DNA of 64,000 bases from Octopus vulgaris (lineage: Eukaryota), in NCBI GenBank assembly GCA_951406725.2, contig OX597824.1, forward strand, positions 64,294,001-64,358,000, in the 5' to 3' direction. A program made the position numbers and the translations under genes. Below, piece after piece: positions 280 through 59,292 of this stretch. The notes below the pieces were generated by a model, which worked only from the letters and a program-made list of their open reading frames with translations, was not told the origin of the DNA and ran no database searches. Position 1 is the stretch's first letter. Each line of letters starts with the position of its first letter.

Positions 280-2250
280 TCATGTGGTGTAGTGAGGAGA
301 AGAGGGGGGGAGAAGAGGGGGGAGGGAAGGGGAGGGGAAGAAGGGGGAAGAGGAGACGATGGGGGAGAAGGAAGGTGAGGAGGGGGATGAAGGAGGAAAG
401 AGGGAGAGGGGGAGAGAGGGAAGGGGGAGAGAGAGAAGGGGAGAGAGGGAGTGAGGGAGCAGAGGGAAGGGGAAGAAGGGAGGGAGAAAGAGGGAAGAAG
501 GGAAGGGGAGTAGGGGTGAAAGGATGAAGGACTGAAGAAGTAGGGATCGGGGGGAGAAAGGATAGGTGAGGAGGGGGAGAGGGGGGTTAGATGAGGAGGG
601 GGGAGAGTTGAGACCAAATGGCGTATAAGAGCGAAGAGAGAAGATTAATTCCTGTTCACGGCGCAAACGGGAATCCGGATGGCCTCTGTGTAAGGACAAA
701 CCGAACACAGATAGGTGTTGCAAGGAGTGACCGGTGGAGCGGAAATGGCGTGAGACCAGTGTGTCGTTCGCAAGGTGGATGTCACGAAGGTGTTCCGCGA
801 ACCGGTCAGCCAAGCGGCGTCCCGTTTGTCCGATGTACAAGGAATTGCAGAGAGAGCAAGAGATGCAATAGATAATATTGCTGGAGGTGCAGGTGAAGGA
901 GTGGATGATGGGATAGGGTCGATGGTGGGTGCTAGTGAGGCGGGTGGTGTTGGAGAGGTAAGGGCAAGTGCGGCAACGTGGGCGGGAGCAGGGGAACGAG
1001 CCGGGTTGGGAGGTAGGGTCAGGGAAGGAGCTATGGACCAAAAGGTCTCGAAGGTTGTGGGCTCGTTTGAAAGAGGGGAGGGGTCGGTTAGGGAAGAGGT
1101 GTGAAGTGGACGGGTCGGACTGGAGATGACGGAAAGCTCGAAGAATGGTGCGTTGGAGACGTAGGGTCGTGGGGTGGTAAGTGAGGGGAAAAGGGAGGCG
1201 GGAGACTACAGGGCGGGTTCGGGGAGAGAGAGCAGATACACGGTCCACGGACCGTGCTCTGGCAAGGGCGGTGTGGATAGTGGTGAGGGGGTATCCACGT
1301 AGGGTGAAGTGGTGAGCCATACGTTGAGACTGAGTCTCAAAGTCATGGTCGTCACTACAGAGCCTACGTAGACGGAGGAATTGGGAATAGGGGATGGAAA
1401 GCTTGGTGTGTTCTGGGTGGGAGGAAGAGAAGTTGAGGTATGAGTGTGAGTCTGTGTGTTTGTAGTGAATGGAGGTGGTAAGAGTGGAGTGAAGAATGCT
1501 AACCGAAATGTCGAGGAAGGAGACAGAGGTGTTGGAGATAGTGGAAGTGAAGTGGAGGGCTGGATGGAAAGATTGGACGAAAGAGAGGAAGGAATCTAGA
1601 TGTTCGCGGGAGAGTGAGGTGGCACCGATAATGTCGTCAATATAACGACCATATAGTTCAGGAGTGGGACCAGTGAAATTAGAGAATATTTGGGCCTCAA
1701 CATAGCCAACGAACAGGTTCGCATAGTTGGGGCCCATTCGCGTTCCCATGGCCACTCCCGAGATCTGATGGTAGAACTCGCCCGCGAACGAGAAGCAGTT
1801 CAGAGTAAGGACAAGTTCGGTCAGACGAATGAGTGTGGAGGTGTCAGGTACAGGGTTAGAGCGGAGGTCAAGAAAGTGTCGAAGGGCCTGCAGTCCTTCG
1901 TGGTGAGGGATAACAGTATAGAGGCTTTGGATGTCCATAGTAAAAAGGATTTTGGAGGAGGCGGGAGGAAAGGAGAAAGAGTTGAAAAGCCGGAGAGCAT
2001 GGTTGGTATCGTGGATGTGGGAGGGAAGAGATGCCACTAGGGGGGCAAGGACACGGTCGAGGTATTTAGAGATGAGCTCCGTGGGGCAGTTACAGGCGGA
2101 GACGATGGGGCGGCCAGGGTTGTTGGGTTTGTGGATTTTGGGGAGGAAGTAAATGGTGGGGGTACGTGGGGTTCGCACAATTAGGTTGGATGCGGTGCGG
2201 GGGAGACGGGAGGACGAGATGAGGTCTTGGACAGTAGAGGATACCGTCTG
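280..2250 (-). mobile_element. Penelope-like retroelement (Neptune-type), 5'-truncated ORF encoding RT + Cys linker + GIY-YIG endonuclease
   Basis: ORF 280..2178 has PLE RT motifs LPKIHK..PGRPIVS, DIQSLYT, GVAMG, RYIDD, a CSRPRCRTC linker and GIY-YIG NIIYCISC..YIGQTGRRLADRFAEH..REQELI..GLN. The frame stays open upstream to ~2250 with no ATG and no internal stops. Confidence 0.95.
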
Positions 2251-2266
2251 TTGGATACCGTCTGTT

Positions 2267-2316
<50 letters not shown>

Positions 2317-2321
<5 letters not shown>

Positions 2322-2712
2322 TATTATAAAAGGCAGATTTTATCTGCCTCCCTTTGGGAGTTATACAAATCTACAATATAGGATTTCTTCAATTACAATT
2401 TACCTGGCATTTTTAAGAGTACAATGCATCGCGTCATGCCAGGTCCAGTTTTTAAAATTTAAACTCCAATTAAGCAAAATTTACAGAAAACTCACATTCT
2501 GGTGTGTGTGTCAAATGCTTTTCTTAGTCTGGTTTACACCACACGCAAACGCACACACACAGTGGGCAACGAATAAAATGAAAGTAAATAGCGGACAGAG
2601 TGATTTGAGGAAGACTAAAGTGAAAGTATTCTGTCTATGACGATGATAGATACATGAGTAAAATGTATGGGAAGCTAAGAGCTAAGAGTGAGTGAAAATG
2701 TTCTTGGAAGAG
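2317..2712 (+). mobile_element. Helitron-type non-autonomous 5' segment (family B, copy 1)
   Basis: Starts TC after (TA)n with a GGCAGAT-TTT-ATCTGCC hairpin. ~270-310 bp are near-identical to 4114+ and 6639+. The 3' boundary is approximate. Confidence 0.6.
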
Positions 2713-3094
2713 AGTAATTAGTAATAAAGTAAACATACACTCATACATACATACATACATACATACATACATACATACATACACACATACACACACACAT
2801 ACATACACACACACATACATACACACACACATACATACATATACATACATACATACATACATATACATACATACATACACACACACACATACACACACAC
2901 ACAGTATTGAAGCTTGAGAACAATCAGATACATTTGCAACACATCTGTTGAAAATATTATTGTTCACACACATACATATACATATATACATACAGACAGA
3001 CAGACAGATAGACACACACACACACACACACACACACATGATCCAGCATGGCCACAACCTCAAGGCTGAAACATATAAAAGAATAACAGAATAT

Positions 3095-3455
3095 AAATGT
3101 GTGCAAAGTACAAGAAATATTAATGCAGTATATGGGGATTGGACAATAAGCGTAAGGCAGTGTCAATGGTGGTTCCAGAAATCCTGAGCCATAAACTACA
3201 GCCTAGAAGACGAGCCTCATCCTGAAAGATCTGTAGAACTCGACAAGGACATCCTGAAAACCCTGGTGGAACAAAATATCATCGTAACTGTTGAGGAACT
3301 AGCAGAGAAGCTTGGATTTGGTCATTCAACCATTCATTGAGACCTGTGTGCTATCGGAAAAGTCAGCAAATTGGGTCAATGGGTTCCTCACGAATTTTCC
3401 GAGTCTAATTGCATGCAGAGAGTGAATGTATGCTTTTCTTTGCTGTCATATCTCA
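3095..3455 (+). pseudogene. mariner transposase N-terminal fragment
   Basis: Frameshifted translation RNINAVYGD..SVRQCQWWF..SLEDEP..ELAEKLG..GKVSKLGQWVPHE (HTH plus the WVPHEL motif). Confidence 0.85.
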
Positions 3456-21174: not shown

Positions 21175-21760
21175 TCAGTTTTATTTCAATATTTCTTGCT
21201 AATAGAGAAAGAACCACTTTTTAATCTAGATCTAAGGCTCCTTCTTTGGAATTTCAATATCAACAACAGGGTATTTTTATATATGTGTATACATGCAGAT
21301 TTGTCTGTTTTGTTTTATGTATGTCTTCTCATGCATATACTTGTGTATCTAGACATGTTCATATATACTTAAATGATAAACTTCTGAAAAGTTTTACAGA
21401 TTTTTACAGTTCCAGTGATGGCTTGGATCTGTAGTCTTCAAACCAGCTTTCTCCTTTCTGGTTTTGAGAAGCCTAATTTCACAAGATTTGTATTTAGGCA
21501 GTGTTTTACATACCCAAGTGATCCAATAATTACAGGTATAAACCTGAACTTGTAATCTGGGTAGAGTAACTGCAGATTTCTCTAGTTCAGCCTAGGTATT
21601 CTCTTTTTCACTTATCCTCAGCTCTATATTAACATCCACTGGGCAGTTAATTTTCATAACTGTCCATAGTTTCTCTTCTCTATCCAAAAACATTATGTCA
21701 GGTCTATTGTATTAACATTTTATCAAAGCTTTCACTGGGACATTCCACCAGTACTCTTTT
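21175..21760 (-). pseudogene. R4/Dong-type LINE 3' end, restriction-like endonuclease domain
   Basis: Translation KEYWWNVPV..NRPDIM..EKE..LLYPDYKFRFIPVIIGSLGYV..GTVKICKTFQKFII* (PD..E RLE signature), followed by a 3'UTR. Confidence 0.8.
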
Positions 21761-24600
21761 TGGGTGGATAAGGTCATAGAGGTTGTCAGGGTATGTGATA
21801 GAGTGCTTAATCTCAGGCTAGTCCTGCAGAACAGTATAGCAACAATTATCTCTGTCTATGCCCCACAAGCGGGCCTACCAAATGATCAGAAAGACCATTT
21901 TTATGATACCCTTCTACAGGCTATCTCAAAGATGAGTGGCAATGACCTCATCTTTGCAGCTGGAGATTTTAATGGGCATGTTGGACAGCAATCCGGTATC
22001 TTCACTGGGGTACACAGGGGTCATGATATTGGTTCCCAAAACGAAGAAGGAACCAGGCTACTGGAGTTCTGTGATGCATGTAATCTTTTAATCTGCAACA
22101 CTAACTTCAGGAAGCCAGGCAGCCACCTGATAACCTATCTATCAAGTGACTCTAGTAGCCAGATCGATTTCATCCTCACCAGGCAGCAGGACGCAAGGTT
22201 GCTCTTAAATACAAAGACCCTCCTGGGTGAAGAATGTACCCCCCAGCATAGACTAGTCATTAGTGACTTTAGACTCGAGGCCAGAAGGATGTCAAGATGC
22301 AGACCCATCCAGAAAAGAAGGATTTGGAAACTAAAGAACCCTTCACATGGTCAGAGATTTAGGGATATCCTCATCAAGAAATTTGATGAGAAGGAGGAGC
22401 TACAGACCTCAGACATAGAGGGTTGCTTGAAATTCCTACAGGACAGCTTACTGAGTGCCACAGACCAAGTCTGCAGATTGTGCAAAGTCCCTTCCAGACC
22501 TAGAGTATCATGGTGATGGAACAATACAGTAGACAAAGCCATTAGAGCAAAGAAACAGACCTGGAAAGCCTGGAAAAGTTGGGATAGCAGAGAACTGTAC
22601 CAGATAGCCAGAAGGGAGGCTGGGGGACAAGGGAGATGCAGAAAAGAAGAGGTTTGCCAATGTCCAGTGACATGAAGACCAAAAAGCTGAAGTATTTTGG
22701 ATTGCAAGACAGTGTGTGAGACAAAATTGTGATGTCACAGGAGAGAAATGCATCCGCATGGATGATGGTGCACTTGCTTTTAATGATTCTGCAAAGAAAG
22801 AGGCTTGGAGATGGCATTATGAAAGACTGCTAAACGTGGAGAATGAATGGGAGGAGGAGAGCCTGCCAAATGCTGACCCAGTTATCCAAATAGACAGCAC
22901 CCAGGTAGATAAAGCAATTAAAGGTATGAAACCAGGAAAAGCCCCTAGCCCATCAGGAATCACTGCTGAGATGCTTAAGACATCTGGTGGTGTGAGCTAT
23001 GGCCTAGTCACCCGTATTGCAGTTCATGACCATAGTCAACTGCTACAAGGGTAAAGGTGATGCTTTAGATAGAAATAACTACAGGGGTATCAAACTGCTG
23101 GATCAGGTGATGAAGGTCACGGAGAGAGTCATAGCCCAACTAATTAGGGAGAGAGTCTGCTTAGATGAGATGCAGTTTGGTTTTGTGCCAGATACAAGCA
23201 CCACTGATTCTATATTCCTGGTACAGTAACTGCAGGAGAAATACCTAGCCAAAGATAAACCCCTATACTTTTGTGGACCTGGAGAAAGCCTTTGTCAGGG
23301 TCCCCCGATCCTTTATCTGGTGGGCGATGCGAAAGCTGTGGATTGACAAATGGTTAATAAGGGCTGTACCAGCCCCATACAGAGATGCTGTTAGTAAGGT
23401 TAGAGTTGGCAATGAGAATAGTGAAGAATTCCAGGTAGAAGCAGGGGCCCACCAAGCGCCCTCTTATTCATCATAGTCCTCCAAACAAAAAGAGAGGAAT
23501 TCAAGACAGGTTGCCTCTGGGAGCGCCTCTATGCTGATGACCTTACCCACATAGCAGAATCACAACCAGAACTACCTAGTAGTTGGGGCGGATGCTCAGA
23601 GAGCATTACCACTAGAATGAGAATTGTCTGGGCAATGTTCAGATTGCTTCTACACCTACTGGTGACAAAGGGCCTCTTGTTCAGAGTGAAAGGTAGATTG
23701 TATGATACATGTGTGCAAACTGCCATGCTTCATGGCAGTGAAAGATGGCCTGTGACTGCTGAAGACATGTGTAGGCTCAAAAGAAATGAAGCTAGCATAA
23801 TCTGCTGGATAAGTAATGTCAGTGTGCATACACGACAGAGTGTAAGCACCCTGAGAGAAATATTGGACATAAGAAGCATTGGATGTGGCATGCAAGAGAG
23901 ATGTCTGCTTTGGTATGGTCATGTACTATGGATGGATGAGGAGAGCTGTGTGAAGAAGTGCCACTCCCAAAGAGTGGAAGGATTCTTGGGTAGAGGGAGA
24001 CCCAGGAAGACTTGGGATGAGGTGGTCAAGCATGACCTTTGAACGTTGGGCCTCACAGAGAAAATGACGAAAGACAGAAACCTCTGGAGATATGCTGTGA
24101 CTGAGAAGACCCAGCAAATAAAGTGAGATCACAGCTATAACCTACACCAGTTTCACATAACCAGACAACTCAAAGGATTGTAGGGCAACTTGCTGTGCTT
24201 GAGGAGACCTATTGAGTAAAGTACATCAACATCAAAATCAAATCAAATCAAATCACATTCAAATGAAAATTTTAGCTGTGATCCCCATGCAGGTGGCACA
24301 TAAAAAGCACCATCCAAACATGGCCAATGCCAGCACCGCCTTGACTGGCTCCCCTGCCAGTGGCACGTAAAAAGTACCATCTGTTCATGGTCAATGCCAG
24401 CCCCTTCTGGTCCCTGCACCGGTGGCACGTAAAAATACCCACCATACTCTCGGAGTGGTTGGCATTAGGAAGGGCATCCAGCTGTAGAAACACTGCCAGA
24501 TTAGACTTGTGCCTGGTATAGCCTCCTGGCTTTCCATACCCCAGTCGAACTGTCCAACCCATGCCAGCATGGAAAACGGACGTTAAATGATAATGATGGT
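21761..24600 (+). mobile_element. RTE-clade LINE, 5'-truncated and decayed (APE endonuclease + RT + 3'UTR)
   Basis: SVYAPQ, GDFNGHVG, QIDF, QHRLV (EN); NYRGIKLL, QFGF, DLEKAF, YADD (RT); GRPRKTW; (GAT)n tail. Confidence 0.95.
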
Positions 24601-25676: not shown

Positions 25677-25964
25677 ATATATATACATATATATATGTAT
25701 ATATATATATACACATACATACACACATATACATATATATATACATACATATATGTATATATATATATGTACATATACACATATATATATATACACACAT
25801 ACATACATGCACTATAAATAGATGAGTGTATTTTTACCTTGTTAACAATTAACACAGAAAAATAAATAAATAGTTACCAGGACAGCAAAAATCTCACAAG
25901 TAAAGATGTTGTAAAAATATTCAACATATATATATTACATATACAACACATATACATTACAACA

Positions 25965-26716
25965 CAACTATACTGGTCCAGGAGGGATCGAAATCCCAGT
26001 ATCGAAATCAATACGGGACCTGGGGATAGACATGAGTGACGATGCATCTTTTTCTTCACACATCGCGAAGGTGGCGACAATGTGCAGACGACTCACTGGC
26101 TGGATCCTGAGGACATTCCGGACAAGAGACCGCGAGACCATGCTGACACCACGGAGGACACCTGTCCCAAGCCGCCTGGACCACCGCCCCCAACCGCGGC
26201 CACCGCACAGTGTCAAACCAACCACAGAGCCCGAGACAATCCAAAGACACTCCACCAAGAGGACCCCCACCATGAAAGAAAAGAACGATTGGGAGAGGCC
26301 TAGGGAACTCAACTTGCACTCCCTGGAACGAAGACGAGAGAGACATGCAGCGACACACACACAGAAAATCCTGGAGGGACCAGCACCAAACCCTGGAATT
26401 GAGAGCTGTTCCAATCCCCGCACAGGACGCCACCGCGTGGTGCCAAAGGTCCCGACCCCCACATCCAGGGCAAGGAGCAGATACTGCAACAGCCCGGGGC
26501 CCAGGGGCCCCCAGCTGCTCAACAAACCGCCAAGAAAACCAAGAGACCCACACGATGCGGACGCGGACACCCCCAAAAAACATCCAGACAAGCTGCCCTC
26601 CGGGATCCCAGATGAACCCACCGCAAGGCACGAAGGCAACCCAAGGGCAGCAGCCACAAACTCTCTCCCAGATCAGTGGCCAGCCACGGCAAACCGGACC
26701 CAGAGAGGGTAGCAAC
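25965..26716 (+). pseudogene. CR1-group LINE RT C-terminal fragment, T>C hypermutated from 26149
   Basis: Intact IRDLGIDMSDDASFSSHI..GWILRTF, then SRLDHRPQPRPP (for LDYCSQLWSP), LHSLERRRERH, GPQLLNKPP, IPDEP, AATNSL. Confidence 0.9.
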
Positions 26717-26719
26717 AAG

Positions 26720-26861
26720 TTAAAGTACTTGAACAATCAGATACAGATGTAATGTCTTGGTTCAAAATATTATTACCCATGTAATAAATATGATATGCTA
26801 TATGAGGTGGTATCAAAAAGTTCCCGGACTAGTTATGTATATATAAATGTATGTATGCATG

Positions 26862-26894
<33 letters not shown>

Positions 26895-27200
26895 GGCCAC
26901 AGACTAATGACTGAAACAAGTAAAAGAGTATGTGTATATGTGTGTGTGTCTGCATGTAAGTATGTATGTATATTACATATATATGCACGTATAGACGTTT
27001 TTGTATATTGGTCCATCATAATAATAGGTGAAAACATTGATAAATGTCAGCAACTGAGGAAATATATGTACATACTCGGAATTAAAGTACTTGAACAATC
27101 AGATACAGATGTAATGTCTTGGTTCAAAATATTATTACCCATGTAATAAATATGATATGCTATATGAGGTGGTATCAAAAAGTTCCCGGACTAGTTATGT
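26720..27200 (+). repeat. 119-bp direct duplication (26720-26838 = 27082-27200)
   Basis: Identical by eye; includes the mariner TIR start gaggtggtatcaaaaagttcccggact. Confidence 0.9.
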
Positions 27201-31473: not shown

Positions 31474-34400
31474 TGTTTAGTTTTCAGGTCAGCTAATTGA
31501 CTATTTTGAACTAAAAAATCTTTTGCGGAGGACGTTGACCCATTACAGATGAACTTTTCGAGTCATCTGTACAGGCAATTCGCGAAAAAAATGACCTCGC
31601 AAACTACAACACTCACAGACAGAAAAGAGAAGGGTGAAACTACACCCTCCCTCCCGTTAAAACAGTAAGTTTTAAACATTCGACTAATTTTTCACATTCT
31701 CTTTTAAACTCGGTTGTTTAAATATTCGCGGCCTGGGGTCGTATTGGAAGCAAGGTTACCTCCTCAACGACCTTGGGTCGCATCGTTTGGATGTAGTTGC
31801 AATTACCGAATCCAGACTGAGTGGGCTGCAGGCTTTTTCGCCCCTTCTAAACAGCTACGAGAAATACGTTTCTCCCTGTCGACCGGGAGGGGGAGGAGGA
31901 GTGGCAGTGCTGGTCGGAAAAAACCTGGATTTAGAGATTAGAACTGTCTTTATAGATCCGGAAGGCAGGTTGGTCGTTTTGCTATGCTCCCTGCGAAGGA
32001 AAAGCCGGGCAGAAAGATTACTTCAAAAGCCTAGAGAATTTTCTCGGCACGTCGAACACGTTAGTATTGCTAGGTGACTTCAACATAATTTGCGATGCAC
32101 GCATAGATTATGTTGGCTCGAGAAAGAATAGGAGGGGATTACCTCACCTCAACGATCTGCTAAGTCGTTTCGAGTTGGCAGATCGATTCAGACTGGACCA
32201 CCCAGACGCTCCAACGTGGACCTGGGCAAGAAACGACGGGTCATCCAGATCTTACATAGATAGAATCATAACTAGAAGGAAAGGTAAGAAAATACTTAGC
32301 TGGCCACAACACCATATCGTCAGCTACAGCGATCATAAATTAGTGACCTTATCGCTTAACATAGATTGCATGTGTAGACGAGGTACCGGTTACTGGAAGC
32401 TAAACAAGTCACTATTGAACTGTGAAGCCTACAGGAATCGGATTAAACAATTAGTAATGAGGGCGTTAACTAGATCCATTATCAACAACAAATGGTGGTA
32501 CGACCTGAAAAGAGCCATCAAATTTGAGTCAATTAGGTTTAGCAAAGAATTAGCTAGTGCTAAAAACAAAGTAGAAAAGGAACTAGTCAAGGCAATAGAT
32601 GAGGCAATGAGGTCAGGCAGTGCATCGAACGTGTTAGCGGCGAGGTTGGCACTCGACCAACATCTCAAAGCTAAACATGAAGGGTGCATTGTCAGGGCTA
32701 AGATCCGTACAATGAGACAGGAAGAGATCAACGCAGCTAGATGGGCCCGGGTGTTAGAGGGCCAGCGTCGCAACAACTCAACCATTCGATCTTTGACGGA
32801 CCCAAATGGTCGATCAGTAAACGAACCCATGGAGATGTGCAATGTGTTTCACGATCATTTCGCCCAGCTATTCGAGAGGAGCAGCGGACTGGAGCGCGGG
32901 GAGAAGCTCGCAGACTTCCTAGCCGGTTCGCCGCATCTATCGAGGCCGGATGCGGAATCTTGTGAGGCGCTGATCACAGCCAAGGAAGTCGAGGATGTGT
33001 AGGTAGACTGCGGCGGGGACAAATCGCCGGGACTCGATGGTCTGCCTTACGAACTCTATAGTAGTATGCCAGACTTGTTTGGGCACCTACTTGCATGCGT
33101 GTACACCAACTGGCAGCAGAACGGGAGAATTCCTAAGTCTGTGAGCCGAGGGGTGGTAGCGCTGTTAAGAAAGGACCCAAACAAGGGGGATTTTATTTAT
33201 AATTTTCGGCCCATCACTCTGCTTAACGCAGAGTTGAAGATTTTTGCCAAGGTCTTAGCAAAAAGGTTGGCGCGGGTTGTGGGTGAACTTGTTGGCGAGG
33301 CGCAAACTTGCGCCATCCCTGGATTGACCATTCACGATAATCTCCACTTTCTACGCTATGCCTTAGGGTAAATAGGATTCCTGGCAGGGATGGGGCTATG
33401 GTTCACTTGGACCAATCGAAAGCGTTCGATTGGGTGGACCATCAGTATCTAGTGGCGGCTGGCTTCGGCCCGACCTTCCGCAGATGGATCAACGCTTTAT
33501 AAAGCAACATCGAATCGGTAGTTCGGGTGAACGGTTTCTTTTCGGAGCCGTTCCGCATAGAACGTTCGGTACGTCAAGGGTATCCTCTCTCCCCGCTTCT
33601 CTACGTTTTGGCCCTCGAGCCGTTGCTGAGGAAGTTGGAAACTATGAGGGGCACTCCGCAAGATCTAGGGTGCGGAAAGTCAGCTTCGGCATGTGCGGTC
33701 GACATCACTGTCATCGTATCCCGAGTCGAGCACCTACAGTGGGTGGGTGAGGTCTTAAGGGATTACGAAGTGGTGGCAGGAGCGAAAGTCAACCGGGATA
33801 AATCGGTCGGCTTGCAACTCGGCACCTGTAGGAGTAAGTCGATGTCTTCCGACTGTTGTTGTTATATATATATAATGTATTGAGTATTAAAGGAAGTAGT
33901 GAGCATAGGACGTTGGACGGAAAGGCCGGTGAAAATGCTTGGAATCAGGTTAGGTCCAGATCTCCAGATAGAGAAGAATTGGAGTGAGGTGGCGAGAAAG
34001 GTGGCTCTCCTAAATCAGACATGGTCTGAGCGGAAGCTGTCGTTGAAAGGGAGGGCGGAGGTTGCAGAGGTGTTTATCGCCTCTGTAATCACTTACCGCC
34101 TGACCGTCGTGCCTTGCCCCAATTCGTGACTGAACAAGCTGGAACGCATGTTCTTTCGCTTTTTGTGGAGGGGCAGCAGACCTCTTGTAAGGCACTCTAT
34201 ATGCTGCCAAAAGACACTGAAGGGTGAGTTAGGGATGCCGTGGTTAAAAATGCGCAGACATGCGCTCAGGCTTAGGCACCTCTGGCTTTACCTGTACGGT
34301 GAGCAGGTGTGGTCTCCGTTCGTCAAACTGTTATTTCCACAGTTCACATCGTTTACCAAACTGAACCCATGGATCGAGTGTAGACCGAGGTTGGGCGTGT

Positions 34401-35326
34401 GGCATGTAGAGTGCCATCAGGCACTCGTGCTTCTCTCCCAGTCGGGCAACGCCGGTGGCGGGGGTACTACCTCGTTCTTCTATAGAGGGTTAGTAGAGTT
34501 TAAGTGTGACGATGTCCTGGGAGAAACCCTGGGCTTCGACGAAAATCAACTGGCCATCCTGTTCCAAAGAACATTCGGTCCGGGGCCTATGGATAATTAC
34601 CAAAAGTCCCAGGCCTGGCAATGTTACAGAGGAGCTTTACCGGTTCGAGATAAGCTCTTTAGACATGGGTGTGCACCTTCGCCGGTTTGTGCAAGATGTG
34701 AGAGGGACATTGAAACTGTCCTGCATGCGATTGTTCAATACCCCAAGGTGACTGAACTCTGGGCTTATGTCGAACACCTGCTGTCGCATTCAAGAAGAGT
34801 ACAACTGTCGAGCGAATCTGTAATTAAGATCGTTCCGCCGACCTCCCTGAATAGGGAGGAGCGAGCCTGTTTTCTCTCGGTAGTTGCTGTGGCGAAAGAA
34901 GTAGTATGGAAGACGAGAGTGAAAGGAATTGCAACAGGCATGTTTATATCCAGTCTCGAGCTAATCGACTTTTTCGTTTTCCACATGAAACGGAAAATAA
35001 GGCTGGAGAAGAAATGCCTGTCGCAAAGTGTGTTTCGTAAAAGATGGAAGTATATAGCAAGTATGTTGTGAGTGAAAGAACCTGTTTAATCGAGAATGTA
35101 AAAAAGGAGAAAGCAAAGTCTTCAGTGTGAGTATGTGGTTTGTGGGGTCAACCTTGTCCTCCGCTTCATTTTGATTTAATCACTCATTCTAATTTAATTG
35201 TATATATTTTAATTGTTTGTTTATTCATACGTTTCGTCTCATTCGATACCCTGACCCCAACGTTTGTTTTGTCTGTCCCCGTATTGTCCCCTCTTTTTCT
35301 CAACCTTATGGTGAATACAGAAATAC
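31474..35326 (+). mobile_element. Tx1/L1-clade LINE, near-complete ORF2 (APE EN + RT + C-terminal Cys/His), with frameshifts and stops
   Basis: CLNIRGL, GDFN, YIDRI, YSDHK, GYWKLN (EN); KSPGLDG, NFRPITLLN, SVRQGYPLSP (RT); CARC..ETVLH. The 3'UTR ends at (TC)n. Confidence 0.93.
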
Positions 35327-43667: not shown

Positions 43668-44519
43668 TTCTAATATTTGTCATCATCATCATCATCATCG
43701 TTTAACGTCCGTTTTCCATGCTAGCATGGGTTGGACGGTTCTACTGGGGTCTGTGAAGCCAGAAGGCTTCATCAGGCCCAGTCAAATCTGGCAGTGTTTC
43801 TACGGCTGGATGCCCTTCCTAACGCCAACCACTCCGTGAGTGTAGTGGGTGCTATTTACGTGCCACCCGCACAGGTGCCAGACAGAGCTGGCAAATGGCC
43901 ACAAACGGATGGTGCTTTTTATGTGCCACCGGCACGAGGGCCAGGCGAGGCTGGCAACAGACACGAAACAGGGCGGTGCTGGCAACGGTCGCGAAACGGA
44001 AGAGTCTCTTACATGCCACCGGCACTGGTAACACATCTGCAATTTCCATTGATCGATTTCCATTGATCGATTCGATTTCCATATATATATTATAATAATG
44101 ATATAATATCATGTTAAATTAAAATGTGTGACTCGTAAATCTCTATTTTCTTTTCATTTTTGTATATTGAATAAATAAATATATATGTATAGCTAGTGCA
44201 GCCTCCTGGCTTCCCAGACCCCGGTCGAACTGTCCAACCCATGCTAGCATGGAAAACGGACGTTAAACGATGATGATGATGATGTATGTATGTATGTATA
44301 TAAAAGACAGTGATAAAGTATCCAAGTGGGTACCATACAAGCATTCGGTTTTAATCTGGGTTACGGCTAACTGCATCAAGTTGAAAGGAGTAGCTAGGAC
44401 TACTTAAGGTAAGCAATCCCTCTGTATTTCATCCAATAGGTAAGTCCTGGATTTGCTTTGCTGGTTTATAAATGTTTTACTAAGGTGTATATCCTAGATG
44501 ATTTCAATGAATATAGAAA

Positions 44520-45530
44520 AGGCCCCGGGCTATCAGGAATCACTGCTGAGATGCTTAAGACATCTGGTAGTGTGGGCTATGGCCTAGTCACCCACATTGT
44601 AAACCAGGTAGTTCATGATAGAGTCATACCCAATGACTGGCATAGCAGCACCATAGTCAACTGCTACAAGGGTAAAAATGATGCTCTAGATAGAAATAAC
44701 TACAGGGGTATCAAACTGCCAGATCAGGTGATGAAGGTCAAGGAGAGGGTCATAGCCCATCTCATTAGGGAGAGAGTCTGCTTAGATGAGATGCAGTTCA
44801 GTTTTGAGCTGGGTAGAAGCACCACTGATGCCATATTCCTGGTTCGACAACTGCAGGAGAAATACCTAGCTGAAGATAAACCCCTCTACTTAGCTTTTGT
44901 GGACCTGGAGAAAGCCTTCGACAAGGTCCCCCAATCCCTTATCTGGTGGGCGATGCAGAAACAGGAGATTGACGAATGGTTGATAAGGGCTGTGCAGGCC
45001 CTATACAGAGAGGCCATTAGTTGGCAATGAGTATAGTGAAGAATTCTGGGTAGAAGTAGGGGTCTACCAAGGTTCAGCCCTCAGTCCCCTTTTATTTATC
45101 ATAGTCCTCCAGGCAATAACATAGGAATTCAAGATGGGTTGCCCCTGGGAGCTCCTCTATGCTGATGACCTGGCCCTTATAGCAGAATCACTACTGGAAC
45201 TAGAAAAGAAATTTTGGGTGTGGCAGCTAGGTTTAAAATCAAAAGGCCTTAGATTCAATGTAGCAACGACCAAAGTTATAGTAAGTAGGAAGGCAAACTC
45301 ATCACCCCCCCCCCCTCAGGTAGGTGGCCCTGCTCGATCTGTAGAAAAGGTGTATGTAGAAACTCCATAAGATGTACCCAGTGTAAGCTATGGACGCATA
45401 AGAGGTGCAGCAATATTAAAGGAAAATTTACTGAGAAGATAGCTTTCATGTGCGGCAGACTCCGGTTGAACCGTCCAACCCATGCTAGCATGGAAAACAG
45501 ACGTTAAACGATGATGATGATGATGATACA
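44520..45530 (+). pseudogene. RTE LINE RT fragment joined to terminal tail
   Basis: GITAEML, NYRGIKL, DLEKAFD, QGSALSP, YADD; (GAT)n end. Confidence 0.92.
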
Positions 45531-57289: not shown

Positions 57290-59292
57290 TGAGGCTCTGA
57301 AAGCAGTGTATGGCCCCACCTACCTGGTCCAGAGTCCCCTACGCAGTTCAGATGGAGAGGACCTCCTCACCGATAACACCTCCATCCTCACTCACTGGTC
57401 CGAGCACTTCCAAAGCTTCTTCAGTGCTAACTGTACCATACAGGACGCTGCCATCCTTCGCATTCCTCAACTTCCACTCAAAGAGGAGCTCAACAAACCA
57501 CCCACCCTCAAAGAAACGATTGAAGCCATAGGACAACTCAAGAGTCGCAAAGCAGCAGTAGTGGACGGCATTCCACCAGAAATCTGGAAGAATGGAGGTC
57601 CAATGCTCCATGACAAGCTCCATGATTTTCTTGTCTGCTGCTGGGACCAGAGCAAGCTGCCACAGGATCTTCGCGACGCCGTCATCATAACACTGTACAA
57701 GAACAAGGGTGAAAAGTCTGACTGCTCCAACTACCATGGAATCACCCTACTCTCCATCACTGGCAAAGTACTTGCCAGGATCCTGCTCAATAGGCTAGTA
57801 CCAACCATTGCTGAAGAAAACCTCCCCAAGAGCCAGTGTGGCTTCAGAGCCAACAGAGGCACAACGGATATGGTGTTCGTCATCCGCCAACTCCAGGAGA
57901 AGTGCCGAGAACAAAACAGGGGACTCTATGCTACTTTCGTCGACCTTACAAAAGCATTTGACACAGTGAGCAGGACAGGACTATGGCTCATCCTGGAACA
58001 ACTTGGCTGTCCCACCAAGTTTCTACAGATGGTGATCCAGCTGCATGAGAATCAGCCTGGTCAGATCAGACTCAATGCTGACCTGTCGGAGCCCTTCCCC
58101 ATTTCGAACAGCGTGAAGCAGGGTTGCGTCCTGGCACCGACTCTCTTCAGCATCTTCTTCAGCATGATGATCAAGCATGCAACTGAAGATATGGAGGATG
58201 AGGATGGGGTGTATGTCAGGTATCGTCAGGATGGCAGTCTCTTCAATCTACGGCGCCTCCAAGCTCACACCAAGACCCAGGGGAGGTTGATTCGAGACCT
58301 TCTCTTCGCAGACGACGCTTGTCACCCACACAGAGTGATCTCTGCAGCGCATCACGTCCTGCTTTGCAGATGCCTCGCAGCTCTTTGGCCTGGAGGTCAG
58401 CCTCAAGAAGGCGGAGGTGTTTCACCAACCTACACCCCAAGAAGAATACCGCCCACCCCACATCACTATCTGCGGTACCGAACTGAAATCAATACAGCAG
58501 TTTACATACCTGGGCTGCATCATCTCATCCGATGCAAGGATCGACAAGGAAATTAACAATAGACTTTCTAAGGCAAATAGCTCCTTTGGCAGATTGTACA
58601 AACGTGTTTGGCACAATGGTGGCCTGAGGAACAAAACAAAGACCAGTGTTTACAGAGCCGTGGTTCTCACCACTCTTCTCTACGGCTCAGAAACCTGGAT
58701 CACTTACCACAGTCACATCCGTCTCCTCGAAAGCTTCCACCAGCGATGTCTCCGCACCATCCTCAACATACATGGGTGTGACTTCGTTACAAACATTGAA
58801 GTCTTGGAGCGGGCCGAGATCCCCAGCATTGAAGCCACGCTACTGAAGTACCACCTCCGATGGGCAGGCCATGTCTCCAGAATGGAGAACCATCGCCTTC
58901 CTAAGATTGCCCTGTTTGGCTAACTTTCCACCGGCCACTGTGTGAGAGGAGCTCCGAGGAAGCGCTACAAAGACTGCCTCAAGAAGTCTCTAACGGCATG
59001 TCATATTAACCACCAATGCTGGTCAAACCTGGCAGCGGACCGTGATGTCTGGCGCCACACGATCTTCAACGCAGTCAGCAAGTTTGAGGAACAAAGAAGA
59101 GATGCACTTAAAGACAAGAGATGCAGGAGGAAGGCGCAAGCCGCCTCTGACACCACACCGGATGTTACCTTCGTCTGTGGACACTGCTCACAGACCTGCC
59201 TTTCCTATATCGGACTTGTCAGTCATGAGCGTGCATGCACGCGACATGGACAGCCTTCCTGATCTTCGTTCGCGAAGCCAAGCCATGATGAT
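57290..59292 (+). mobile_element. RTE-BovB-type LINE, 5'-truncated, few lesions
   Basis: [58 protein letters not shown]-terminal C2H-C finger; tail gcgaagccaagcc(atg)n. Confidence 0.95.

What the first reader, a model, noticed from the sequence alone, without database searches (positions are those of the whole stretch)
26149..26712. LINE fragment with massive strand-specific T>C (antisense A>G) hypermutation and an ADAR-like context bias: an edited nucleic acid fixed in the genome
Seen in sequence: from 26149 the conserved CR1-group RT C-terminus is rewritten almost only by T>C. Examples are LDYCSQLWSP>LDHRPQPRPP, LW>PR, RY>RH, LGF>PGP, LFN.LP>LLN.PP and V>A; I infer more than 30 such codon changes. 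By hand count T falls to 46/564 nt (~8%), versus ~19% in the unaltered 5' part (25981-26148). Surviving Ts are TC 19, TG 20, TT 4, TA 3, so on the minus strand adenosines after G or C survived and those after U or A were mostly lost. Established: this matches the ADAR 5'-neighbour preference (U>A>C>G), and coleoid cephalopods have unusually extensive A-to-I editing. Inference: either (a) an antisense, dsRNA-hyper-edited transcript was reverse-transcribed into the germline, or (b) an adenosine deaminase edited the first-strand cDNA in the RNA:DNA hybrid, an adenosine analogue of APOBEC3 retroelement restriction. Either would be a route from editing to heritable mutation. The ancestral sequence was reconstructed from my knowledge of the motifs, not from an alignment.
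Basis: partly seen in the sequence, partly recalled or inferred. Interest (0 to 1): 0.92.

Follow-up and report, generated by a model that had tools for sequence, protein, structure and literature searches.

The report
Antisense RNA edits fossilised in DNA
A 775-base piece of a young jumping gene in an octopus-type genome carries about 75 changes with the signature of the RNA-editing enzyme ADAR on its antisense strand and is inherited, most likely because a heavily edited RNA was copied into a chromosome break.

Summary
Real and heritable. Against 29 young family copies the fragment (25945-26719) differs at 77-78 sites, 72-74 of them T>C and none A>G in most comparisons. The tract is 26131-26701 (74 of 123 T); 0 of 38 T upstream changed. 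Minus-strand adenosines after U or A were hit 47 of 54 times, after G 10 of 28 (p 5.5e-6). A second sample's DNA holds it on one 649-nt contig; no other genomic copy shares it. The piece lacks the LINE's 3' tail and has break-repair junctions. Tail-bearing copies show sense A>G clusters (4 in 99 copies) and no T>C clusters, and RNA-type runs hold independently T>C-edited family molecules. Best reading (0.7): an ADAR-hyper-edited antisense RNA was reverse-transcribed into a DNA break; cDNA editing in the hybrid is disfavoured (0.1). Bonus: a younger subfamily seems to descend from an A>G-edited RNA. The source duplex was not found. The scan noted sense-strand ADAR fossils before in other genomes; none listed was antisense. 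No paper found in 10 searches.

The parts
25813..25914 (+). Left flank: first ~102 nt of a multi-copy repeat, cut off here; its usual continuation is missing
   Evidence: 40 scored of 1219 candidates at 97-100%; 10 of 11 sister copies run on with a shared sequence, 1 breaks at about the same place; no continuation near the insert within +-100 kb
25914..25925 (-). 12-nt filler: inverted copy of sequence that lies 36-47 nt beyond the break in sister copies of the left repeat
   Evidence: 12-nt match in 6 of 11 sisters, 11-nt in one more; 2 of 3000 random 200-nt stretches hold such a word
25926..25944 (+). TA-rich filler resembling the first bases of the LINE piece (slippage-like; read by eye, not tested)
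   Evidence: sequence
25945..26130 (+). Unedited part of the LINE fragment
   Evidence: 0 differences, 0 of 38 T changed against copy L013
26131..26701 (+). Hyper-edited tract: 74 of 123 T read C (A>G on the minus strand); probably 75, as the second sample has C at 26455; the family's stop codon is among the changes
26702..26719 (+). Last 18 nt of the LINE fragment; the family's 3' tail that follows in 29 of 29 copies is absent
   Evidence: window piece = positions 2556-3330 of the 3395-nt reference stretch
26720..26838 (+). 119-bp exact, unedited duplicate of 27082-27200, joined to the LINE without microhomology
   Evidence: only these two places match at 100%, next best 87-91% over shorter lengths; junction bridged in the second sample
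26839..26894 (.). TA/TATG microsatellite, the kind of site this family inserts into
   Evidence: sequence; family 3' flanks
26893..26930 (+). Remnant of a related short-repeat tail, 89% like the LINE tail, one of many in the region; not the missing tail itself
27082..27200 (+). Source of the duplication; its last ~40 nt begin a high-copy repeat (mariner-like by recall)

Best explanation
A transcript that read through a copy of this young LINE in antisense paired with a sense copy (an inverted neighbour or a separate transcript). ADAR deaminated about 60% of the adenosines in the paired 570 nt; the unpaired 186 nt stayed unedited. In a germ-line cell this RNA, or a cDNA made from it, was used as a patch at a DNA break: reverse transcription read inosine as G, fixing C on the sense strand. 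The same repair lost part of the left repeat, added short templated filler and copied 119 bp of local DNA. Shown: spectrum, context, sharp border, inheritance, singleton status, abnormal junctions, inverted pairs and ADAR genes in the genome, sense A>G clusters in ordinary copies. Inferred: the enzyme, the duplex and its partner, the reverse transcriptase used, and that all of it was one event.
For: 74 T>C and 0 A>G against L013, even across codon positions (25/27/22), 5' neighbour U 24/26, A 23/28, C 17/39, G 10/28; UAG 10/10. G depletion upstream is the cross-species ADAR motif (PMC5625713, passages). RNA-type contigs carry most of the same T>C sites plus others the window lacks (26251, 26287, 26289, 26677) and one is edited upstream of 25945, where the window has no copy; a probe for that variant finds 0 in the genome. 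In 99 ordinary copies (189 kb) rare variants form 4 A>G clusters (21 sites; null mean 1.8 sites, 0 of 1000 shuffles), 1 A>T cluster and 0 T>C clusters, so edits enter this family's DNA from RNA. Inverted pairs of 94-99% identity a few kb apart were seen in 7 of 10 loci picked for having close neighbours, some with truncated partners. Four loci encode the ADAR-type deaminase domain. Tail absent here, present in 29 of 29 and 80 of 80 sampled copies reach beyond it. Break patches from RNA without tail or target duplication are described (PMC5110952, PMC4516963, passages).
Against: No source duplex found: none of the sampled copies starts at the border with an inverted mate; the best candidate (L182) has none within 40 kb. 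The 'RNA' label of runs X4 and X5 is the tool's guess, contigs show no strand, X4 is another species label, and edited genomic copies private to those animals are not excluded. The junctions do not fix the direction of synthesis: either direction needs one change of template strand. It is a single case: three T>C probes elsewhere in the element found no second one. G depletion before the 34 clustered sense sites is not significant (4 of 34 against 24%, p 0.10).
Confidence: 0.7

Rival explanations
1. ADAR or another adenosine deaminase edited the first-strand cDNA inside the RNA:DNA hybrid during insertion of a sense LINE RNA; the last-made 186 nt escaped; the tail was lost by a rearrangement.
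For: Polarity fits; the unedited part is the one made last. ADARs can deaminate the DNA strand of hybrids with their usual context preference (PMC5389660, passages). A review calls it unknown whether this happens to retroviral hybrids (PMC12925331, passage).
Against: 0 T>C clusters in 99 ordinary copies against 4 A>G clusters; no second T>C copy among at least 453. In vitro a matched 90-bp hybrid was edited at three sites only. Editing is flat along the tract and stops abruptly, with no gradient. RNA-type runs already hold such molecules.
Confidence: 0.1
2. The copy first sat here unedited and was later rewritten in place from its own edited antisense transcript (RNA-templated repair in cis); the border at 26131 is where the rewrite began, and tail loss plus the duplication are its scar.
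For: Explains the sharp border, the perfect 5' part, the missing tail and the local 119-bp template in one step. The site is TA-rich like normal targets.
Against: No inverted family copy within 100 kb on either side, only a 64% relative at -69 kb. The left junction is itself abnormal (lost repeat, inverted filler), which suggests that the whole piece arrived in one repair. No host gene was seen in the window (ORFs read by eye are repeats).
Confidence: 0.1
3. A DNA-level process without ADAR (error-prone polymerase, unknown deaminase on single-stranded DNA, or TpA-directed hypermutation) hit the patch.
For: TpA sites are the most affected (23 of 26).
Against: Strictly one strand: at the same 26 TpA steps 0 A>G. 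The adjoining duplicated and flanking DNA, rich in TA, is untouched. The full order U, A, C, G matches ADAR (order recalled; G depletion, 5' T best).
Confidence: 0.05
4. Assembly or base-calling artefact, or a diverged subfamily.
For: None found.
Against: Held by a second sample with only 2 differences in 649 nt; no copy shares the alleles.
Confidence: 0.01

Closest known systems
ADAR-type A-to-G hypermutation recorded in avian retrovirus DNA (Rous-associated virus, avian leukosis virus; Felder 1994, Hajjar and Linial 1995, seen only through the review PMC12925331)
   Same: About half of the adenosines of a stretch changed to G, ascribed to dsRNA editing followed by reverse transcription.
   Different: Those are exogenous retroviruses copying their own RNA; this is a non-LTR element, antisense polarity, inserted outside its normal route and inherited in an invertebrate germ line.
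APOBEC 'DNA editing' of LTR elements fixed in vertebrate genomes (PMC4866542, passages)
   Same: Dense, one-strand, context-biased hypermutation of a single retroelement copy that became heritable and wrecks its reading frame.
   Different: G>A by cytidine deaminases on cDNA; that screen covered LTR elements and found its 19 invertebrates depleted. Here the change is A>G on the antisense strand of a LINE, most likely at RNA level.
ADAR hyper-editing of repeat RNA, very high in octopus (PMC5625713, PMC9068888, PMC9989829, passages)
   Same: Clustered A-to-I in young repeats, G depleted upstream, duplexes from inverted neighbours or sense-antisense pairs.
   Different: Described in RNA only; here the pattern stands in genomic DNA of two samples.
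Class 2 templated sequence insertions and RT-product-mediated break repair (PMC5110952, PMC4516963, passages)
   Same: Patch truncated at both ends, no tail, no target-site duplication, deletion and filler at the junctions, composite inserts.
   Different: RNA origin there is shown by lost introns; here the edits are the marker. The passages I saw do not mention RNA editing (0 hits in PMC5110952).

Membership tests
ADAR hyper-editing cluster | Dense A>G on one strand only | tested here: met
   74 T>C of 77 differences, 0 of 176 A changed to G
ADAR hyper-editing cluster | 5' neighbour: G avoided, U favoured | tested here: met
   U 24/26, A 23/28, C 17/39, G 10/28; p 5.5e-6
ADAR hyper-editing cluster | Lies in long dsRNA | tested here: inconclusive
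   No self-hairpin (z -0.34 for an unedited copy); inverted pairs exist; actual partner not found
ADAR hyper-editing cluster | Same edits arise in RNA but not in matching DNA | tested here: inconclusive
   Independent T>C patterns in two RNA-type runs; label guessed, no matched DNA; one variant absent from G000
ADAR hyper-editing cluster | ADAR genes in the genome | tested here: met
   PF02137 over cut-off at four loci; dsRNA-binding domains not checked, so ADAT or ADAD genes may be among them
ADAR hyper-editing cluster | Dependence on the enzyme | not testable with these tools
   needs biochemistry or knock-down
APOBEC DNA editing of retroelements | G>A on the sense strand | tested here: not met
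   1 G>A in 775 nt
Canonical target-primed LINE insertion | Intact 3' tail at the target | tested here: not met
   ends about 45-50 nt short; 29 of 29 others keep it
Canonical target-primed LINE insertion | Target-site duplication flanking the insert | tested here: not met
   the only long direct repeat has both copies on the right side; a short duplication hidden in TA repeats cannot be excluded
Class 2 templated insertion / RNA-patched break | Truncated at both ends, no tail, deletion and filler at junctions | tested here: met
   the deletion is inferred from sister repeats, which are often internally deleted themselves
Class 2 templated insertion / RNA-patched break | Junction microhomology | tested here: inconclusive
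   0 nt at the LINE/duplicate joint; the other joints lie in TA repeats
Class 2 templated insertion / RNA-patched break | Empty allele known | tested here: inconclusive
   no joint or empty allele listed in 4 runs of contigs
LINE (non-LTR retrotransposon) | Endonuclease plus reverse transcriptase in one frame | tested here: met
   L099 1066-aa frame: RVT_1 E 2.9e-30, Exo_endo_phos_2 E 1.9e-12; the window piece alone matches no Pfam family
CR1 group of LINEs | Placement in the CR1/L2 clade by RT tree | not tested
   no named clade references were at hand (one search gives almost no names)
TpA-specific hypermutation of integrated DNA | Both strands hit at TpA | tested here: not met
   23 T>C, 0 A>G at 26 TpA steps

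The most novel reading that the evidence does not exclude
The germ line of this animal has a route that writes A-to-I edits back into DNA at the very locus that was transcribed: this copy was rewritten in place from its own edited antisense RNA during break repair. Such a route would act on edited genes too and turn frequent edits into heritable A>G mutations.
Probability: 0.1. Interest if true: 0.92.

Novelty: new variant of a known kind. Interest (0 to 1): 0.72.

Why it matters
RNA editing is held to leave the genome untouched. This locus is a clean, inherited counter-example in a lineage with extreme editing, and the same family shows the milder, sense-strand form in ordinary copies and probably in the founder of its younger subfamily. 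It gives (1) a fossil record of ADAR activity in germ cells, (2) a marker proving that a break patch came from RNA, here an antisense RNA that the LINE's normal route would not insert, and (3) a simple genome-wide test, polarity against presence of the tail, for how often edits become mutations. The locus itself is probably without function.

Tried and rejected
A fixed-start '980-bp unit' seemed to appear; rejected, as my reference L013 was itself truncated. Long T>C runs between loci were microsatellite flank motifs; after masking, only the window copy had a cluster of 9 in 10 like changes among 12,058 alignments of 412 kb. Genome-wide short probes: two for sense A>G gave 0, three for T>C outside the window's tract gave 0, one inside gave only the window; each needs two or more fixed sites edited within ~24 nt, so they miss short or light tracts such as those, and only the 3' motif had an unedited control (453). 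No RNA holder was listed for the stretch, which says nothing on expression. Self-folding of the fragment: no signal. Search for the source duplex: 10 picked loci, +-100 kb around the window, +-40 kb around L182: none. Outgroup proteins polarise the subfamily tract only weakly: most sites lie before the first Met or are silent. Depth ratio duplicate/edited tract is 24.7/13.3 in X2, which fits a homozygote better than a heterozygote; X1 is unclear (54.8 or 79.3 against 45.2); weak. No earlier notes exist for this genome or for an antisense capture. Hajjar and Linial 1995 is not held. No supplements were read; the invertebrate note of PMC4866542 could bear on novelty. Literature: 10 answered searches listed no report of ADAR-type tracts in germ-line LINE copies; subscription journals are largely missing.

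Full report
Observation. A search of the own genome (2.8 Gb) returned 39 other matches at 90% identity, 40 scored of 1542 candidates. Against each of 29 fetched copies the fragment aligns ungapped over 25945-26719 with 72-74 T>C among 77-78 differences. Against one copy (L013): 74 of 123 T in 26131-26701 read C, 0 of 38 T in 25945-26130, 0 of 176 A read G; changes fall evenly on codon positions (25, 27, 22) and alter 47 residues including the stop codon. The other copies differ from each other by a median 0.26%, with 26 T>C in 10,807 T cells (70 alignments, five duplicate loci left out). The three remaining differences are T>G 26287, G>A 26363 and T>A 26455.

Context. Read on the minus strand, edited over total adenosines by 5' neighbour are U 24/26, A 23/28, C 17/39, G 10/28 (G against U+A, p 5.5e-6); by 3' neighbour G 27/38 and 47/83 for the rest; UAG 10/10. 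Depletion of G upstream is the motif shared across animals (PMC5625713, passages); a 5' T is called the best neighbour in PMC5389660 (passage); the full order U>A>C>G is recalled. Four loci of this genome encode the deaminase domain PF02137.

Not an artefact, not a subfamily. Three DNA runs of two samples and two studies hold 89-94% of the sampled words. In the 2018 sample one contig spans 26101-26749, across the right junction, with two other letters: T at 26329 and C at 26455, so that site too was first T>C. The 2023 sample may be the assembly's source. Searches with each half of the tract found no other copy above 87% over the length (40 scored of 595 and of 545); a T>C probe hit only this copy, against 453 copies with the exact unedited 3' motif.

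What the element is. Long copies have one frame of 1066 codons with endonuclease and reverse-transcriptase domains; the best named relative is from Argonauta hians, 59%, from which I infer an octopod host. The clade was not tested. The window piece covers positions 2556-3330 of a 3395-nt reference stretch.

Junctions. All 29 compared copies continue with a tail of about 50 nt into TA repeats; the window copy stops short, and 80 of 80 sampled copies reach past that point. Instead there is an exact, unedited 119-bp duplicate of 27082-27200, joined without microhomology. On the left, a multi-copy repeat is cut at 25914, its continuation is not found nearby, and the next 12 nt are an inverted copy of sequence from the lost part (6 of 11 sisters; 2 of 3000 by chance). 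One of the 11 sisters breaks at nearly the same place, so the deletion may be older than the insert. These features match break patches made from RNA (PMC5110952 and PMC4516963, passages), not ordinary target-primed insertion. They do not tell in which direction the patch was made.

RNA route or cDNA route. (i) I fetched 80 of the first 100 listed of the 453 copies (contigs C1-C3, all chosen by an unedited 3' motif) plus 10 loci with close neighbours. In 89 non-overlapping loci (L106 left out as overlapping), 99 copies and 189 kb, variants carried by at most two copies form 4 A>G clusters in 3 copies (21 sites), 1 A>T cluster and no T>C cluster; shuffling gives 0.6 A>G clusters and 1.8 sites, and 0 of 1000 shuffles reach 21. 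Editing of cDNA during normal insertion predicts the opposite. (ii) Contigs of two RNA-type runs carry most of the window's T>C sites in different combinations, with extra sites, and one is edited upstream of the window's piece; that variant has no match in the genome. The RNA label is a guess and one run is another species. (iii) Near-identical inverted pairs lie a few kb apart at 7 of 10 loci picked for close neighbours, some with truncated partners that would give sharp edit borders; the fragment has no hairpin of its own. (iv) In vitro, full-length ADAR2 edited three sites on a matched 90-bp hybrid (PMC5389660, passages). Against: the source duplex was not found, no second antisense case turned up, two sense probes found nothing, and the G depletion at the sense clusters is not significant (4 of 34, p 0.10).

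An edited founder. Long copies fall into two types that differ at 17 columns, 12 of them A/G, 11 within positions 192-536 of the sense strand. The 15 A-type copies are more diverged than the 22 G-type copies (median 3.9 against 1.5 changes per kb, p 5e-4), so G is probably derived. Most sites lie before the first Met or are silent, which would let an edited RNA stay active. Outgroup support is weak and the root was not tested by a tree. The window copy carries the allele common in the older type at 26517.

Verdict on mechanism. Capture of a hyper-edited antisense RNA at a break 0.7; cDNA editing 0.1; rewriting in place 0.1; a non-ADAR DNA process 0.05 (TpA both-strand model fails: 23 T>C, 0 A>G at 26 steps); artefact 0.01.

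Comparison and novelty. ADAR-type hypermutation recorded in DNA is known for two avian retroviruses (review PMC12925331, passage; the original paper is not held). Heritable hypermutated retroelements are known as APOBEC G>A in vertebrate LTR elements, with invertebrates depleted (PMC4866542, passages). A trace survey found no excess of A>G or T>C clusters in high-quality DNA reads of human and frog (PMC2873906, passage). Cephalopod editing of repeats is described at RNA level (PMC9068888, PMC9989829, passages). Ten searches listed no report of such tracts in germ-line LINE copies; I saw listings and passages only, no whole texts or supplements. The scan has four unchecked notes of A>G fossils in other genomes, three stated as sense-strand LINE cases and one in an LTR; I did not test them. 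What is particular here: antisense polarity, entry outside the element's own route, a second individual, and both polarities within one family. New variant of a known kind; interest 0.72.

Noticed in passing
L099 reference positions 192-536 (L099:5212-5556); types listed: The LINE family splits into an older A-type and a younger, larger G-type by 11 A>G sites in 345 nt of the sense strand, with a nested branch adding two more: a likely ADAR-edited founder that stayed active. One site is the base right after the first start codon.
   Followed up: partly
L097:6060-8881 (ref 757-815, 990-1054), L163 (ref 2639-2699), L137 (ref 2164-2173): Private sense-strand A>G clusters of 3-7 sites in ordinary tail-bearing copies.
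   Followed up: yes
L097, L100, L101, L102: Long head-to-head inverted pairs of this LINE (arms about 3 kb, 96-99% alike, 0.8-3.3 kb apart); loci were picked for this, so the frequency is unknown.
   Followed up: partly
runs X4 and X5 laid on window 26153-26323, 26574-26719 and upstream of 25945: RNA-type contigs with independent T>C hyper-editing of this family; X4 bears another species label.
   Followed up: partly
window 280-2370 (-): Open frame of about 690 codons that reads like a Penelope-type reverse transcriptase with a GIY-YIG end (recalled motifs, not tested).
   Followed up: no
window 21716-24042, 31688-35071, 44440-45030, 57300-59262: Further broken LINE reading frames (RTE-like and L1/Tx1-like by recall); no host gene recognised in the window.
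   Followed up: no
L192-L202 and window 25813-25914: A young repeat in TA sites with internal inverted arms and frequent internal deletions; it could form hairpin RNA on its own.
   Followed up: partly
flanks of L023, L032, L069, L072: Kilobase-long TA arrays that grade into TACA or TATG variants with a strand bias; whether editing of UA-repeat RNA has any part in this is untested.
   Followed up: no
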